Assembly: GCA_965287045.1 (NCBI GenBank)
Contig: OZ336876.1
Coordinates: forward strand, 57,288,001-57,352,000
Direction of reading: 5' to 3'
DNA length: 64,000 nucleotides
Origin: Carcharhinus amblyrhynchos
Taxonomy: Eukaryota
The stretch's first letter is position 1. Every line of letters begins with the position of its first letter. Below are positions 19,431-60,331 of the stretch, in pieces. The notes under the pieces are model-generated. The model had not been told where the DNA came from. It saw only the letters and a program-made list of their open reading frames with translations, and made no database searches. Position numbers and translations under genes: made by a program.

Positions 19431-19591
19431 TCTGTAAGTGCCTTGAAATGTCAGCAACCTGTATTTATTCAGCCATTATTTGCCAATGCAAATAATCAAA
19501 CTTTGTGATATTGTTGCTGGGATATTATTGACCTACATCAGAAAGGTAGACAGCAAAGGCTGGTAGAGCTAGAGGTGATGTCAGAATGAAA

Positions 19592-19751
19592 TGATGCGGA
19601 GATGCCGGTGTTGGACTGTGGTAAAACAGAAAGAAATCCCACAACTCCAGTTTAAAGTCCAAACAGAAGGGACAGGCTGTCCCAAAAGCTTGTGGCTTTT
19701 GCTACAGATAAACCTGTTTGGACTTTAAACTGGTGTTGTGGGATTTCTTTC
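19592..19751. mobile_element. Mini Penelope-like insertion: inverted pLTR with 13-bp TSD
   Basis: TSD tgtcagaatgaaa at 19579-19591 and 19752-19764. Arms 19627-19666 and 19714-19753 are near-perfect reverse complements. A partial hammerhead lies in the spacer. Confidence 0.85.
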
Positions 19752-20339
19752 TGTCAGAATGAAAACCAGTTGTTATCTCGACCCCATAGGGTCTACTTTT
19801 AGGCTACTGTTGTTTTTAATTCAATCAATGACTTGCAGGAATGAATATCCTCCACCAAGTTTAAGTTTTCAGATATCAAATTCAGATGGCACCAACGGTG
19901 CTAGCTAATCTAAAGGATATGGACAAGCATGGTCATTGACTAAAAAGGCAGATAAACGTCATAAAATTAGATTACACATCTGGCAATGTATTTCATGTGA
20001 TAAAACAGAGAAGAGCTCGAGGAATTTGGTGGGTACGTCATTAAAGATTTAATATTTGCAGTCAAAACGAAACCAATTGTCAAGATATAAAGGTAGGGTA
20101 TGATTTATAAATCAAAAGATATAAAATTGTACCTGGCCTTGGTTTGACCACATCTGGAGCACCTGGATTCAACTTTGACCATGCACTATGAAGTAAATAG
20201 TTTTTTTGCTGCATGGCAAGGTGCAAATTTGGCTCTGGCCAAACTGATTTACAAGAATAAAAATCTAAATAAATGGAAATATTCATTACTAGAGAAGGGT
20301 ATTGGTTCTGTTTCTTAAATATAGAACTGGAGTGAACCA

Positions 20340-22269: not shown

Positions 22270-23390
22270 AATACGAACATACAGAATAGGCGAACTAGGC
22301 CATTCGACCGCTTGAGCCGGCTCCATTATTCAATAAGATCATGGCTGATCTGATTATGTTGAGCTCTACATTCCTGATCTACTCCCAATAACCTCTTCCT
22401 TTAAAATATTCAGTGATGCTGCTTCCACCGCCTTCTGAGGCAGATCCTTCCGAAGTTGCACCATCCTGCAGAGAACATATCTTTCCACGTCCTCTTAAAC
22501 AAGGAGACCAAAGCTTCACACAGTATTTGAGACACAGTCTCAACAATGCCCTGTATAACTGAAGCATAGCATCCTTTCACGTTCAATTCTCTTGCTATAA
22601 AGATAGAATGATCCTGGCAGACAAAAGACATGTTGGATTTTCTGACCTCAACCATAACACAAGAATGAAGTGCATCAGGATCCGGAGACTTGTCAGGCGC
22701 AGCCTTATCAGTTTGCTCAATACCGTATCTCTCATGATTGTAATTTCACAGAGTTCCTCTCTCCCTTCCACCTCCTGATTTCTAGTATTACCAGAATATT
22801 TATTCTATCCTCCATAATAAATACAGAAGCAAAATATCTGTACACTTCATCCACCATTTCCTTATTGCCTACTATTAACTCCCCATTCTCACTTTCTAGA
22901 GGACTAACAATTATCTACTCTTTTCCTGTTTAAATAAATTTTCGCTATTTACTTTTATAATCCTAGCTAGATTTCTTTCTCCCAATTAAGCTTTTAGTTG
23001 TTGTCTGCTGTTCTTTATTTTCTGACCAATGATATGACCTGCCATTTGTGCAGTTATATATTTTTTCTTCAATTTGATGATTTCCTTCTTTGGTTAACCA
23101 TGGACGGTGGCTCTTCCCTTTAAGAATTTTTGATTACGGTAAGGATATACTTGTTCTGAGTATTCTGAAATATCTCTTAAATATCGACCACTGCTTCTCT
23201 ATTAATCTATCCTTAGCCTAGTATCGCAGTTTATTTCACCAAGCTCAGCTTTCATGCGTACATAGTAGCTCTTACTTAAGTTTAAAATACCAATTTTAGA
23301 CCCACTCTTCTTCCTTTCAAATGAGATGGTTTTGTTAAATGGTAGATCAGGCTCGAAGGGCCAAATGGCCTCCTCAAACTCCTATTTCTT
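22270..23390 (-). mobile_element. Degenerate CR1 fragments
   Basis: MLQLYRALLRLCLKYCVKLWSP; CR1 tail at 22270-22350. Confidence 0.65.
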
Positions 23391-23729
23391 AACAGCCCTA
23401 ATCCAGACAGACTCAGGAGCATTCAAAAACAATATCCAAAAGATCTCTCCACACAAACAGATTTAGTAATCTCCTAGTACGTGTCGACACATATGGAGAA
23501 CGAAGTTTATTTTGAATTAATATTGCTTCAAATTATCTAATAATTCATTTTCTATGGTGATAAATTCCTACTTTTACTATTTTTGATGTTCAATTCAAAT
23601 CATTTTACCACAAAAATAATTTTTGTTAGGTGGAAAAGTGGCTCGCACAGCTGTCTCACAGTGCCAGAGACCCAGGTTCGATTCCCAATTTGGATCATTG
23701 TTTGTGCAGAGTCTGTTAGTCATTCAAAA

Positions 23730-24955
23730 TTAAATCTTAAGTTTATTTATTACTGTCACAAGTAGGCTTATGTTAACACTGCAATGAAGTTACTGTGAAA
23801 ATCCCCAAGCTGCCACACCACAGCGCTTGTTCGGATACACTGAGGGAGAATTTAGCATGGCCAATGCACCTAACCAACACGTCTTTCAGACTGTGGGAGG
23901 AAACCAGAGCTCCTGGGGAAACCCAAGCATGATGTGGGTATGCCGGCGTTGGATTGGCGTAAACACAGTAAAAAGTCTGACAACACCAGGTTTTAGTCCA
24001 ACCGATTTATTTGATAATAGACTCACAAGCTTTCGGGGTTAGTCCCTTTGTCAGGTGAATGGAGAGTTCTGGCCTCAGACAGAGCATATAAAGCACAGAC
24101 AGTTTAGAGATTACTGATTAGAATGTGAATCCTTACACCTAACCTGCTGTTCAAGACCTGAAGTGGCTGACAATGTGAGTGGAAGGAGCACTGATCACAG
24201 GTTAAAGAGATGTGTATTGTCTCCAGACAGTACAGTAAAGTGAGGTTTTGCAAACCCAGGCAAGTCACGGGGGTTACAGATAGTGCGACATGAACCCAAG
24301 ATCCCTGTTGAGACCGTCCTCATGTGTGCGGAACTTGGCTATCAGTCTCTTCGCTATCCCTTCGCCAACAGGAAGGGGTTGGCGAACACTTCAGTGGTCA
24401 CGGGCATTCAGCCTCTGACCTTCGGGTAAGCATTCTCCAAGGCGGCCTTCACGACACACGACAGCGCAGAGTCGCTGAACAGAGACTGATAGCCAAGTTC
24501 CGCACGCACGAGGACGGTCTCAACAGGGATCTTGGGTTCATGTCGCACTACCTGTAACCCCCGTGACTTGCCTGGGTTTGCAAAACCTCACTTACTGTAC
24601 TGTCTGGAGACAATACACATTTCTTTAACCTGTGATCAGTGCTCCTTCCACTCACATTGTCAGCCACTTCAGGTCTTGAACAGCAGGTTAGGTGTAAGGA
24701 TTCGCATTCTAATCAGTAATCTCTAAACTGTCTGTGCTTTATATGCTCTGTCTGAGGCCAGAACTCTCCATTCACCTGACAAAGGGACTAACCCAAAAGC
24801 TTGTGAGTCTATTATCAAATAAATCGGTTGGACTGAAACCCAAGCAGACAGGGCCAAACATGCAGACTCCACACAGACAGTGACCAAGCCGGAGTTGAAC
24901 TTGGCTTCCTGGCACTATGAGGCAGCAGTGCTAACTCCTATTCCAACATGCCGCG
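23730..24955 (-). mobile_element. V-SINE-like SINE (alternative tail) split by a PLE insertion
   Basis: SINE halves 23730-23929 and 24835-24955 rejoin at gaaacccaagca. Confidence 0.8.
23930..24840. mobile_element. Penelope-like element: about 360-bp inverted arms around a GIY-YIG C-terminal fragment, 12-bp TSD
   Basis: Arms 23989-24350 and 24481-24840 are near-identical reverse complements. ORF 24324-24557 reads VGEHFSGHGHSASDLRVSILQGGLHDTRQRRVAEQRLIAKFRTHEDGLNRDLGFMSHY. TSD gaaacccaagca at 23918-23929 and 24835-24846. Confidence 0.92.
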
Positions 24956-25454
24956 CAATTAAAAACTACATATCAGACTAACTGCACATCAGAATGCCCA
25001 TTAATGCTGGATTCACAGAGGAGCTTGAGGATGTACTTGGTACAAATGCAGAAACTCTCAGTGAGTAAAAGACAGTTTACATGGTCATTACATTACAAAA
25101 CTGACCATCTCCGGCAATGTTTCTAATTGTGGTTATGTTCTCTATTCATAAGGTCGGCACTCCCTAGTTTTTGTTTCTGGCATAAAATGAAGATACGCCA
25201 CTTCTAAAACTTTACAAAGCTTTTATTCTTTGTATAAGTGAAGAAAAATGGTTGGATCAAACATTAATAATTCACATGAAGGTACGACTGAAGAAAAAAA
25301 TGATATGTAGGTATCAGTTTGCAACCTTCAGTTTAGGATTAAAGACATTGGGAAGGTAGGCTTGGGGCTAGGTATATTCTGATAAGTCTCCCAGGATGCT
25401 TTCTGTAATAGAAGTTTCTGTAAAATATCATTGTGAAATTAATTTCTGATCACA

Positions 25455-25597
25455 AACTCCCCACTCACCTGACGAAGGAGCAGCGCTCCGAAAGCTAGTG
25501 GCATTTACTGCCAAATAAACCTGTTGTACTTTAACCTAGTGTTGTGAGACTTCTTACTGTGTTTACCCCAGTCCAACGCTTGCATCTCCACATCATG
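25455..25597 (+). mobile_element. Solo PLE pLTR / 3' terminus
   Basis: Ends tttaccccagtccaacgcttgcatctccacatca, the reverse complement of the termini at 19592, 23930 and 59932. Confidence 0.8.
25466..25500 (+). ncRNA. Minimal type I hammerhead ribozyme motif, core intact
   Basis: CAC-CTGACGA-A-GGAGC-AGC-GCTCC-GAAA-GCTA-GTG: CUGANGA and GAAA cores, 5-bp helix II, palindromic AGCU helix III, CUA cleavage triplet, CAC/GUG helix I. Confidence 0.8.
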
Positions 25598-25719
25598 TTC
25601 ATATAGGTGCCAGGGATGGAAAATTTCGACGTTTGAAGTAGCACAGGTGAGGTGATGAAAATATTTCTATACAGGGAGTGAGGGAGATATAGACAGAACT
25701 ACTTATAGTGTCAGGGGAA

Positions 25720-26445
25720 ACATAGAAACTAGAAGCAGGAATAGGCCATTTGGCCCTTTGAGCCTGCTTTGCCATTCATTTTGATCATGGCTAATCATCA
25801 AATTCAATACCCTGATCCCCCCTGCCCCGCTCCCCCGTCCCTTGCTCCATGTCCCTTTAGCCTCATGAGCTATATCCAATTTCTTCTTGAAATCAGACAA
25901 CATTTTGACCTCAACTACATTCTGTGGTGGTGAATGCCACATTTTCACCATCCTCTGGGTGAAGAAATTTCTCCTCACCTCAGTTCTGAAACGTTTACCC
26001 CTTATCCTCAAACTATGACCTCTAATTCTGAACTCCCTCACAATCGGGAGCTTTCTTTCTGAATCCACCCTGTCTAACCCTGTTCAAATTACATAAATTT
26101 CTACGAGATCCCCTTTCGTTCTTTTAAACTCCAGTAAATATAAACCTAACCAACTTAGTCTCTCCCCATATGACAGACCCGCCATCCCAGGAATCAGTGT
26201 GGTAAATCTTTGCTGTATTCCCTCTATAGCAAGGACATCTTTCCTCAGATAAGGATGCAAAACTGCACACAATACTCCAAGTGTGGCCTCAGCAATGCCC
26301 TCTCAAATTGCAGTAAAACATCCCTATCCCTATACTCAAATCCTATCAATACGAAGGCCAACATATCATTTACCTTCTTCACTGCCTGCTGTACCAGCAT
26401 GCTTACTTTCAGCGACTGATGCACAAGGACTCCAAGGTCTCGTTG
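25720..26445 (-). mobile_element. CR1 3' fragment
   Basis: LRPHLEYCVQF; RGHSLRIRG..RRNFFTQRMV. Confidence 0.9.
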
Positions 26446-26659
26446 AGAATGCCAGCAGAAAGTCGGCAGAGACCAGTAGGACAATTCTGTCCCCAATTTC
26501 TTATTAGTTTTGATTAAATTTGAATTCATAATTTGGCCAACAAAGAGCTGGAAATCTAAACTAGTAGACTGAAATTGGAGTCACAAAAATTGTAGCCAGG
26601 TATTCTAAAAAGCACCTATTCTCAGTTGACAAAATAATGGAAATAATCTTGGAGGAAAC

Positions 26660-28330
26660 AAGCATGAACATAGGAACAGGAGCAGGCTATTCAGCCAGTT
26701 GAGCCTCATCCTTCATCATTCAATTAATCCTAGCTGACCTACCTCAATGCCATTTACCTGCACTATCTCCATATCCTTTGATGTTATTATTCTCCAGATA
26801 TCTATCAATCTCTATCTTGAATCAATCTCTATCCAATGATAGAGCTTTCACATCCCTCTGGGGAAGAATTCCAAAGATTCACCCCATCTGAATGAAGAAA
26901 TTCCTCCTCATCTCAGTCTTAAATGGCTTGACCCTTATTTTGAGATTATGTCTCCTGGTTGTAGATTCAGCAGCCAGGGGAAACATCCTATTTATATACA
27001 TCCGTCATGTAAGAACTTTGTAAGTTTCAATGAGATCACCTCTCAATCTGTGAAACTCTAGGGAACAGAGGCCCAGTTTCCTCAATCCCTTCTCATAAGG
27101 CAATCCAGCCATCTCCAGAATTGGTGAACCTCCATTTCTCTACCGTTTTGGCAAGTATATCTTTCCATAGATAAGGAGACCAGAACTGTGCACAATACTC
27201 AAGATGCAGTGTCACTAATCGCAGCAAGACACTGCTACTTCTGCACTTAAATCTCCTTGTGATGAAGGCCAATATACCATTTGCCTTCCTTATTGAATGT
27301 TGTATCTGCATGCTAGCATTTAGTGACTAATGAATAAGGAAACCCAGGTCCCTTTGGGCACCAACACTTCCCAATCTCTCACCACTGAAGAAATCTTGGT
27401 GTTTTTTTCTTCCAAAGCAGATAACTTCACACTTATTCACAGTATTCCATTAACTATGTCCTTGCCCATTCAGTTAACCTATCCTGAGGGCTCTTCTTAC
27501 CCTCCTCACAATTTAACATTTCCACCTTGCGTTTTTCAATCAGAAATTATGGAAATGATACAATTCATTTGATTTGATTTATTGTCACATGTATTAGTGT
27601 ACAATGAAAAGCATTGTTTCTTACATGCTATACAAAACGTACTGTTCATAGAGAAGTAAAGGACAGAGTGCAGAATGTAGTGTTACAGTCATAGCTAGGG
27701 TGTAAAGATCAACTTAATGTGAGATAGGCCCATTCAAAAGTCTGATGGTGGCAGGGAAGAAGCTGTCTTGAGTTGGTCGGCATGTGACCTCAGACTTGCA
27801 TTTCTTTCCCCAATGGAAGAAGGTGGAAGAGAGAATGTCCAGAGTGCATGGGGTTCTTAACCATGTTGGCTGCTTTTCCAAGGCAGCAGGGAGTGTCGAA
27901 AGAGTCAATGAGTGGGAGGCTGGTTTGCATGAGGGACTGGGCTACATTCAGGACCTTTTGTAGTTTCTTGCAGTCTTGGGCAGTGCAGGAGCTATACCAA
28001 GCTGTGATACAACCAGAAAAATGCTTTTTATGGAGGCTATTTGGTCCCCAGATCCAAATCATTTATATAGACTGCAAACAGCAGTGGCCCCAGCAATGAT
28101 TCTTGTGGTACATGATTAGTAACAGCCTGCCATTCTGAGAATGATCCATTTATTCCTACTCCCTGTATGTTAACCAATTCTTAATCCAAACTAGTACATT
28201 ATCCTCCAATCCCACATGCTTTAATTTTGTTCACTAACATCCTGTGTGGGATATTATCAAAAGCCTTTTGAAAATCCACAAGTGTCAAATCCATTGGTTC
28301 TCCTTTATCTATCCTCAAAAAACTCCCTCA
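26660..28330 (-). mobile_element. Older CR1 fragment split by a Rex1-type LINE
   Basis: KANGILAFITR..HLEYCAQFWSPYL; CR1 sequence resumes at about 28035. Confidence 0.75.
27568..28032 (-). mobile_element. Rex1-type LINE 3' end
   Basis: GCITAWYSSCTAQDCKKLQKV..HSLFHLLP..DSFFPATIRLLNGP; (tttga)n tail. Confidence 0.85.
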
Positions 28331-36618: not shown

Positions 36619-36695
36619 CAAACAGGTTTATTTGTAGCAAAAGCTGCAAGCTTTCAGGACAGGCTGTCCCTTCGTCAGGTGGCTGGGAGTTCTTT
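36619..36695 (-). ncRNA. PLE pLTR fragment with hammerhead motif (core intact, helix I mutated)
   Basis: Reverse complement of 36644-36683: GCCAC-CTGACGA-AGGGACAGCCTGTCCT-GAAA-GCTT-GCAGC. Same subfamily as the copy at 19667-19720. Confidence 0.7.
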
Positions 36696-38504: not shown

Positions 38505-38589
38505 CATGTTAATCAATTGCGAATGCACAATATCTTCAACCAACACAGCAGTTTCTGGGAGAGTTCGGCGCGCATCCCCGAAAGCATAC
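38505..38589 (-). CDS. SUPT3H: Internal coding exon of SUPT3H (SPT3 homolog, SAGA/STAGA subunit), equivalent to human exon 3
   Basis: Minus strand reads ttgtgttccag|G TAT GCT TTC GGG GAT ... AAC ATG|gtaagg, 85 nt. Translation (M)[28 protein letters not shown] matches recalled human SUPT3[30 protein letters not shown]. No neighbouring exon was found in the window. Confidence 0.95.
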
Positions 38590-59530: not shown

Positions 59531-59931
59531 AATACAAGGCAAAGTGAAACCAAGTGAGGACAACAACTAAGCTAAATAACAAAGGCATGGTGTTGGATGA
59601 TGATGGTATGGTTGAACATACCAAAGGCTGCAAAGAGAAAAAAGATGGATAATGCTTAAAAGTCACAGGCACAAAGAATACCTCTTATGACTCCCATTAT
59701 TGCTGTTTCAATACTGTGGGAGACTTAGAAACTTGATTGATGAGATTCAAATTTGAAGTGCCAATAAAGATGGATATATAAAAGCAAAATACTGCTGATG
59801 CTGGAATCTGAAACAAAAACAGAAAATGCTGCAAAATCTCAGCCGATCTGACAGCGTCTGTGGAGAGAGAATAGAGCCAACATTTTGACTCTGGGTGACC
59901 CGTCATCAGAGCTATGAGCAAAGAATCATCA

Positions 59932-60331
59932 CGTGGATGTGCCGGCGTTGGACTGGGGTAAACACAGTAAAAAGTCTGACAACGCCAGGTTTTAGTCCAA
60001 CCGATTTATTTGATCGTAAACTCACAAGCTTTCGAGGGGACTCCCTCTTCGTCAGGTGAATGGAGAGTTCTGGCCTCGGACAAAGCATATAAAGCACAGA
60101 CAGTTTAGAGATTACTGATTAGAATGCGAATCTTTACACCTAACCTGCTGTTCAAGTCCTAAAGTGGCTGACAATGTGTGTGGAAGGAGCACTGATCACA
60201 GGTTAAAGAGATGTGTATTGTCTCCAGACAGCACAGTGAGTGAGGTTTTGCAAACCCAGGCAAGTCACGGGGGTTACAGATAGTGCGACTTGAATCCAAG
60301 ATCCCTGTTGAGACCGTCCTCTGACTTTTTA
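59932..60331 (-). mobile_element. Young PLE 3' end (same family as 23930-24840) nested in the older PLE, 13-bp TSD
   Basis: TSD caaagaatcatca at 59919-59931 and 60332-60344; near-identical to 23930-24320. Confidence 0.9.
60022..60059 (-). ncRNA. Minimal type I hammerhead ribozyme motif, core intact
   Basis: Reverse complement TCAC-CTGACGA-A-GAGGG-AGTC-CCCTC-GAAA-GCTT-GTGA: both cores, 5-bp helix II, UCAC/GUGA helix I, palindromic AAGCUU. Confidence 0.82.

What the first reader, a model, noticed from the sequence alone, without database searches (positions are those of the whole stretch)
25466..25500. Intact-core minimal hammerhead ribozyme in a solo Penelope pLTR
Seen: CAC-CUGACGA-helix II (GGAGC/GCUCC)-GAAA-GCUA|GUG, with all conserved core nucleotides present and a loop-less palindromic AGCU helix III. 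Established: Penelope-like elements carry minimal hammerheads thought to cleave as dimers through such palindromes. Inference: this roughly 140-bp pLTR-only copy may belong to a non-autonomous, ribozyme-bearing retroelement family in sharks. It lies antisense to SUPT3H.
Basis: partly seen in the sequence, partly recalled or inferred. Interest (0 to 1): 0.7.

Follow-up and report, generated by a model that had tools for sequence, protein, structure and literature searches.

The report
Hammerhead stub of shark Penelope retroelement
This is a real copy of the small hammerhead RNA motif already known from Penelope-type jumping genes, sitting in a short, likely dead end-piece of a protein-coding element with thousands of copies in this genome, so it is ordinary apart from a hint that such pieces are likely copied from RNA the motif had not cut.

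Summary
The motif is there as described (25466-25500, +): all core bases, a 5-bp helix II, palindromic AGCU, predicted cut after 25497. Helix I is 4 bp, not 3. It is no chance match: 184 exact copies, 16,380 core-intact relatives and compensatory changes in helix II. 'Non-autonomous family' is not supported. The stub is the pLTR end of a coding Neptune-type Penelope-like element: two intact 893-aa RT-endonuclease ORFs exist in a sister subfamily, 26 of 99 sampled copies run into coding sequence, and the stub ends on the ORF's ATG, 97 nt past the cut. Copies decay at CpGs, and this one is predicted to misfold helix I. 5' ends do not pile up at the cut but do just upstream of the ribozyme, so templates were likely uncut. 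It lies antisense in a SUPT3H-like intron. The kind was described by Cervera and De la Pena 2014, and this scan has noted it many times before on other shark DNA and in this genome. No cleavage was tested.

The parts
25444..25457 (-). 14-nt remnant of an inverted pLTR arm, joined to the direct arm through a 3-nt overlap
   Evidence: The same junction occurs 5 times in the genome; in the other 4 an inverted arm lies directly upstream. No target-site duplication was found for this copy.
25455..25597 (+). pLTR stub of a Neptune-type Penelope-like element, from just upstream of the ribozyme to the ORF start codon
   Evidence: Hits of 88-97% identity end at these bounds; differs from the position-wise majority of 99 copies at 7 places inside the stub, none in the 35-nt motif.
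25465..25501 (+). Minimal type I hammerhead: helix I (UCAC/GUGG), core CUGACGA and GAAA, unpaired A, helix II, triplet CUA, predicted cut after 25497
   Evidence: Sequence; pair counts; matches the min-HHR description in PMC4209133.
25477..25489 (+). Helix II, 5 bp with 3-nt loop; covaries between subfamilies
   Evidence: 28 cells with a change on both sides against 8.8 shuffled, 0 of 500; 27 of 31 recurrent variants keep 4 or more pairs.
25493..25496 (+). Palindromic AGCU, a loop-less helix III that could pair only between two motifs
   Evidence: Sequence; AGCU duplex -2.5 kcal/mol. Dimer cleavage is inferred from PMC4209133, not tested.
25500..25512 (+). Competing hairpin GGCA/UGCC that is predicted to take the 3' strand of helix I in this copy
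   Evidence: Pair probabilities 0.87-0.99; helix I probability 0.008-0.062 over four spans.
25559..25597 (+). PLE 'tail', about 39 nt, ending on the ATG of the element's ORF (25595-25597)
   Evidence: 36 of 99 copies carry it, 58 stop at its start, 5 other; 26 of 36 tailed copies end within -1..+4 of the ATG; the same letters run into the 893-aa ORF in L121 and L122.
38505..38589 (-). Exon of the SUPT3H-like host gene; the stub lies in the intron downstream of it, on the opposite strand
   Evidence: PF02269 match, splice sites read, next exon in L316.

Best explanation
This is a minimal hammerhead motif in a 143-bp end-piece of a high-copy, protein-coding Penelope-like retrotransposon with Neptune-clade motifs, and this copy is likely dead and likely arose by reverse transcription of an RNA that the ribozyme had not cut. 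Shown: in full elements the motif sits 97 nt upstream of the ATG of an 893-aa RT plus GIY-YIG-type ORF and again about 250 nt after its stop; insertions end at the ATG (tailed) or about 39 nt earlier (tail-less), often as inverted pairs. Inferred: the element's RT starts inside the RNA near the ATG, as shown for the anole element (PMC11167929), passes through the uncut hammerhead and either falls off or runs off the RNA 5' end 11-14 nt upstream of helix I, which gives stubs of this size. Inferred: the ribozyme was kept by selection only in the active source elements, where two motifs 3 kb apart on a tandem transcript can pair through AGCU and cut weakly or with help from the element's protein; inserted copies then decay. 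This copy has no same-strand partner of its subfamily nearby, lies antisense in the host intron and is predicted to misfold, so it likely does nothing.
For: Coding parent: 41,357 candidates for the endonuclease piece, open frames of 931 and 917 aa among the 150 scored; 893-aa ORFs in L121 and L122 with RVT_1 at E 6e-10 and, read by eye, DKG, YIDD, a CX4CxxC linker and two Cys between the GIY-like and YIG motifs, the features PMC8557442 gives for Neptune/Nematis. L317 is pLTR-ORF-pLTR with the window-type pLTR. 26 of 99 copies extend more than 262 nt upstream of the cut, into the ORF end. Selection in source elements: helix II covaries while N7 and H17 vary as the chemistry allows (H17 A 182, U 91, C 18, G 4 of 295). 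Decay after insertion: G8 differs in 22% and G12 in 28% of copies, both at CpG, other core positions 0-5%. Uncut templates: every tailed or tail-less copy holding the motif carries sequence on both sides of the cut (83 of 99); 10 of 30 pLTR-to-ORF copies extend through the whole upstream motif and none starts at the cut. Preferred start: 13 starts in 4 positions (11-14 nt before helix I) against 17 in 22 flanking positions among 133 window-type copies, p 2.4e-4.
Against: No cleavage, transcription or RT-start data exist for this family; only contigs of uncertain kind were available. The 11-14 bin was chosen after seeing the data, and short inverted repeats at that place could also draw template switches. 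The TATA-like motif lies only about 21 nt before that start. Pfam did not detect the GIY-YIG domain and no tree was built, so 'Neptune' rests on motifs read by eye. The intact ORFs belong to a younger sister subfamily whose pLTR is 76-80% identical to this one; no intact ORF with the window-type pLTR was seen. Helix I shows only one-sided changes, and the number of pairs with two-sided change (4) does not exceed shuffles (330 of 500); related rows inflate the cell counts. Samples are the first listed places, mostly on contig C1.
Confidence: 0.85

Rival explanations
1. A dedicated non-autonomous, ribozyme-bearing family (retrozyme- or SINE-like) of about 140-155 bp that is transcribed on its own and mobilised by the Penelope-like protein.
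For: Short copies are common: 50 of 99 start within 60 nt upstream of the cut, and starts cluster. A 2026 preprint reports tandem retrozymes derived from pLTRs, also in one chondrichthyan. pLTR sequences can act in trans in rotifers.
Against: Lengths form a continuum up to full elements; this copy is not in a tandem; short copies share helix II variants with long ones; a stub starting at the RNA 5' end would have lost any upstream promoter.
Confidence: 0.07
2. The ribozyme cuts the RT template in vivo and so sets the 5' end of a share of insertions; copies should pile up at the cut site.
For: 5 of 99 copies start at or just after the cut and 7 within 10 nt before it. Earlier scan notes report such a pile-up in other shark genomes.
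Against: 475 copies start within -4..+7 of the cut; my by-eye tally of the 100 listed is flat (-4:14, -3:8, -2:9, -1:10, +1:5, +2:9, +3:3, +4:8, 34 later or internal deletions), and the scripted tally of 30 loci has 0 at +1 and 4 at -1. None of 30 pLTR-to-ORF copies starts at the cut. A small excess at -1/+1 cannot be excluded with this sample.
Confidence: 0.12
3. This copy was co-opted to act on the SUPT3H-like gene or on an antisense transcript.
For: The 35-nt motif has no change from the family majority and lies inside a gene.
Against: A third of unselected copies have an intact core (32 of 99); the motif is on the strand opposite to the pre-mRNA; helix I is predicted to be blocked; the window holds at least five more fragments of the same family.
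Confidence: 0.02

Closest known systems
Minimal hammerheads (min-HHR) in pLTRs of metazoan Penelope-like elements (Cervera and De la Pena 2014, PMC4209133; parts 1-2 of 4 read, one supplement searched)
   Same: Type I, no helix III loop, palindromic 15.2-16.2, unpaired base before helix II, G10.1-C11.1 pair, 4-bp helix I, thousands of mostly single copies, opposite-strand pairs 100-700 bp apart, many sequence families with covariation.
   Different: Helix II is 4-5 bp here, against 7-8 bp in Schistosoma. At least 16,380 core-intact copies of one spacing, above the 4,000 and 9,000 given for coelacanth and Xenopus. No shark is named in the parts I read or in the supplement searched (file 1 could not be searched).
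EN+ PLEs of the Neptune clade (Arkhipova 2006 as summarised in Craig et al. 2021, PMC8557442; passages read)
   Same: Single ORF with RT and C-terminal GIY-YIG-type endonuclease, CCHH motif, CX2-5CxxC linker, heavy 5' truncation, inverted 5' copy, 30-40-bp tail at one end.
   Different: No tree was built, so Neptune versus Nematis is not settled here. The tail ends at the start codon.
Anole Poseidon element PAc (Frangieh et al. 2024, PMC11167929; parts 1-2 of 4 read)
   Same: Two 3' ends about 40 nt apart that match two internal RT start sites; hammerhead at the pLTR-ORF junction; uncut RNA as the main template; no reads ending at the cut.
   Different: In PAc the ORF begins inside the ribozyme and RT starts 111-118 nt into the ORF; here the ribozyme lies wholly in the 5' leader and insertions end at or before the ATG.
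Non-LTR retrozymes of animals (bioRxiv 10.64898/2026.07.22.740005; parts 1-3 of 5 read)
   Same: pLTR-derived, ORF-less units with type I hammerheads; monomers scattered over chromosomes.
   Different: Retrozymes are defined there as tandem repeats with two or more ribozyme-bearing units; this copy is single and its family is coding.

Membership tests
min-HHR of metazoan PLEs | Intact core C3-U4-G5-A6-N7-G8-A9, G12-A13-A14, A15.1, U16.1, H17 | tested here: met
   H17 is G in only 4 of 295 parsed copies.
min-HHR of metazoan PLEs | Helix II with covariation, G10.1-C11.1 pair and an unpaired base between 9 and 10.1 | tested here: met
   unpaired A in 177 of 182 copies of this spacing.
min-HHR of metazoan PLEs | Helix I of 4-5 bp | tested here: inconclusive
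   4 bp possible, 90.5% of cells paired, one-sided changes only; predicted to be outcompeted in this copy.
min-HHR of metazoan PLEs | Palindromic, loop-less helix III | tested here: met
   AGCU at 25493-25496; G and C kept in about 95% of unselected copies.
min-HHR of metazoan PLEs | Self-cleavage as a dimer | not testable with these tools
   Needs in vitro transcription.
EN+ PLE, Neptune clade | pLTR flanking one ORF with PLE-type RT | tested here: met
   sister subfamily, intact; window-type pLTR, broken ORF, L317.
EN+ PLE, Neptune clade | C-terminal GIY-YIG endonuclease with CCHH, plus CX2-5CxxC linker | tested here: inconclusive
   Motifs seen by eye; Pfam gave no GIY-YIG match.
EN+ PLE, Neptune clade | Inverted 5' copy, optional tail, target-site duplication | tested here: met
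   21 of 36 tailed and 26 of 63 other copies have an inverted arm within 1.5 kb; duplications seen by eye and found for the neighbour copy, not for this one.
EN+ PLE, Neptune clade | RT groups with Neptune in a phylogeny | not tested
   No reference PLE proteins were fetched.
Non-LTR retrozyme | Head-to-tail tandem of two or more ribozyme-bearing units | tested here: not met
   Single unit; nearest fragments are 600 bp away, of another subfamily, in their own duplication-bounded insertion.
Non-LTR retrozyme | Family encodes no protein | tested here: not met
Non-LTR retrozyme | Circular RNA | not testable with these tools
   No raw RNA reads were offered.

The most novel reading that the evidence does not exclude
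The thousands of stubs are a genomic record of the Penelope-like life cycle: each is a run-off cDNA of the uncut RNA leader, from transcription start to the ATG-proximal RT start. Only uncut RNA is copied, yet the ribozyme is held by selection 97 nt before the ATG, so cleavage acts as a switch that takes an RNA out of the template pool and commits it to another fate, such as cap-independent translation. Young, intact, well-folding members in this genome would make that testable.
Probability: 0.2. Interest if true: 0.6.

Novelty: new member of a known kind. Interest (0 to 1): 0.2.

Why it matters
The locus itself matters little. The family is a good place to ask what Penelope-like hammerheads are for, which is still open: at least 16,380 core-intact copies, several subfamilies with different helix II, young members with intact ORFs and inverted arms 99.7% alike, and enough insertion ends to map where the RNA starts and whether cut RNA is ever copied.

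Tried and rejected
Rfam scan: no hammerhead model matched. Fold z-score of the 151-nt stretch: not significant. Pfam on three endonuclease-end fragments: nothing above cut-off. Cleavage footprint in 5' ends: looked for, not found. Target-site duplication for this copy: only a misplaced 6-nt chance match. Splice-acceptor reading of the start 11-14 nt before helix I: considered because AG lies there, dropped because in L152 and L218 the element begins directly after its target-site duplication (read by eye). Expression: no RNA holder listed; four runs laid on a young element were contigs of uncertain kind, with no start or end signal; no evidence either way. Lunse et al. 2017 (PMC5785218) is not held; I know it only through the review PMC6765202 (passages), so a shark example there or in its supplements cannot be excluded. 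Paper searches for penelope+hammerhead+shark (4 papers, none on shark PLEs by listing and one by passages), shark genome+Penelope+transposable elements (3 listed, not read), Penelope-like+Neptune+shark and Penelope+pLTR+solo+transcription start (1 listed, not read) found no description of this family; Repbase and Dfam were not available, and the preprint's supplements are closed.

Full report
Observation. The motif is present as described on the + strand: CAC 25466-25468, CUGACGA 25469-25475, unpaired A, helix II GGAGC/GCUCC, GAAA, GCUA, GUG. By standard hammerhead numbering (recalled) the cut falls after A25497, and AGCU is positions 15.1-16.1 with no loop. Helix I can take a fourth pair (U25465-G25501). 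No hammerhead family was among the 5 Rfam matches over 23000-28000, and the surrounding 151 nt do not fold better than shuffles. The genome settles chance: 184 exact copies of the 35-mer and 16,380 matches to the core with this spacing, with 0 for the reversed controls.

Extent. A 301-bp query gave 2,418 candidates, 40 scored, matching window 25443-25597 at 88-97%. The direct arm is 25455-25597. The 14 letters at 25444-25457 match the opposite strand of the family's upstream sequence; this junction occurs 5 times in the genome and the other 4 sit at the centre of inverted insertions. So this copy likely lost, or barely made, an inverted arm; no target-site duplication survives. PF02269 exons on the minus strand at 38505-38589 and about 17 kb before the window place the stub antisense in an intron; the name SUPT3H is my recall of the protein.

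The parent is a coding element. Upstream of the pLTR many copies continue into a shared body that translates to a cysteine- and histidine-bearing YIG domain. Searching with that piece gave 41,357 candidates, 150 scored. Of 10 long-frame loci fetched, two hold intact 893-aa ORFs with an RVT_1 match; Pfam missed the endonuclease. By eye they carry DKG, YIDD, a CX4CxxC linker and the CCHH layout, which PMC8557442 (passages) assigns to Neptune and Nematis. These intact ORFs go with a younger pLTR, 76-80% identical to ours; L317 shows the window-type pLTR on both sides of a broken ORF, motifs 2,982 bp apart. The last letters of our stub are the ORF's ATG, 97 nt after the cut. For an unbiased sample I took copies by a motif downstream of the ribozyme (9,480 matches; 99 of the 100 listed recovered; a few are segmental duplicates and were kept). 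26 of 99 reach the coding region, 50 start within 60 nt upstream of the cut or later; 36 are tailed, 58 tail-less, 5 other. This is the truncated, inverted, tailed pattern described for EN+ PLEs.

Selection acted on source elements, not on copies. Over 415 anchored copies from all loci then held, 295 could be parsed (the set is enriched for intact motifs). N7 and H17 vary, H17 avoiding G (4 of 295). 27 of 31 recurrent helix II variants keep 4 or more pairs, against 15.6 +/- 2.1 when halves are swapped (a crude control). On 74 distinct rows chosen for intact core and equal spacing, 91.0% of cells pair and 28 show a two-sided change against 8.8 shuffled (0 of 500), all in helix II; the count of pairs with two-sided change does not beat shuffles (330 of 500) and helix I has one-sided changes only. 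In the unselected 99, 83 hold the motif and 32 have an intact core; losses fall on the CpG guanines G8 (22%) and G12 (28%). An intact core in one copy is therefore unremarkable. In this copy a hairpin at 25500-25512 is predicted to take the 3' strand of helix I: helix I probability 0.008-0.062, against medians of 0.02-0.20 in 30 exact-motif copies and 0.30-0.98 in 24-36 young-subfamily copies.

Does the ribozyme cut the template? I looked for 5' ends at the cut. 475 copies start within -4..+7. My by-eye tally of the 100 listed is flat (-4:14, -3:8, -2:9, -1:10, +1:5, +2:9, +3:3, +4:8, 34 later or deleted), and a script on the first 30 found 0 at +1 and 4 at -1. Of 257 copies where the pLTR runs into the ORF, the 30 examined start 12 to 700 or more nt before the ATG, none at the cut, and 10 span the whole upstream motif. 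This goes against earlier scan notes from other genomes and agrees with the anole element, where uncut RNA is the main substrate and the ribozyme cuts only with protein (PMC11167929). Starts do cluster upstream of the ribozyme: after dropping duplicates (168 of 176 kept), 13 of 133 window-type copies start 11-14 nt before helix I, against 17 in 22 flanking positions (p 2.4e-4, bin chosen afterwards); 8 of 15 copies of a shorter-spaced subfamily start within 6 nt. A pattern for copies lacking the upstream block found 1,873, and many of the 100 listed begin at the first letters before helix I (by eye).

Mechanism. Shown: anatomy, coding parent, two 3' ends, covariation, decay, no peak at the cut, a peak upstream. 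Inferred: internal RT start near the ATG, copying through an uncut ribozyme, run-off or fall-off, inverted partner arm, later loss of that arm here; dimer cleavage through AGCU in tandem transcripts of source elements. What cleavage is for stays open. PMC13725137 (passages) reports that hammerhead cleavage in viral 5' leaders promotes cap-independent translation; a motif 97 nt before the ATG fits that, untested.

Comparison and verdict. The motif meets the sequence features of the min-HHR of metazoan PLEs (PMC4209133, parts 1-2 read), which already reports thousands of single and opposite-strand copies in fish, coelacanth and frog and low dimer activity. It fails two features of non-LTR retrozymes (tandem units, no ORF; preprint parts 1-3, which lists one chondrichthyan with retrozymes and found cleavage in 1 of 9 Xenopus dimers). 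Four paper searches found no description of this family, but repeat databases, the Lunse 2017 paper and some supplements could not be seen. The scan's index holds 446 notes with these words in at least 28 genomes and 22 in this genome; a look-up by sequence returned none. New member of a known kind; interest 0.2.

Noticed in passing
window 23928-24840: Fold-back insertion of the younger subfamily (arms 89% alike, tail at 23928) bounded by a 12-bp target-site duplication; independent of the finding, 600 bp away; both of its ribozyme cores look decayed.
   Followed up: partly
window 19586-19754, 36621-36693, 59927-60321: Further fragments of the same family: a tiny fold-back, an old stub with a 6-bp helix II, and a 395-bp minus-strand copy with an intact core and an apparent target-site duplication.
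   Followed up: partly
L123:1284-5000 and L127:2785-6164: Young insertions with inverted arms 99.7% identical over 1.2 kb and long open frames, pointing to recent activity.
   Followed up: partly
L122:1500-3345 and L030:880-1500: A LINE-like retrotransposon (RT-like frames) has landed inside the Penelope-like element, in L122 in the 3' UTR behind an intact ORF.
   Followed up: no
L314/L315, around 1500: Head-to-tail triplicate of a 51-nt unit holding the whole hammerhead, a natural multimer.
   Followed up: no
L095/L114/L140, L097/L109/L117, L131/L132/L135/L138: Copies with identical flanks on contig C1, 0.3-5 Mb: segmental duplications of larger units.
   Followed up: no
window about 25715-26450: Looks like the 3' part of a LINE on the minus strand just downstream of the stub; label recalled, no call tested it.
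   Followed up: no
L008:5-591 and L027:1694-2505: Tandem arrays with periods of 57 and 52 bp next to family copies.
   Followed up: no
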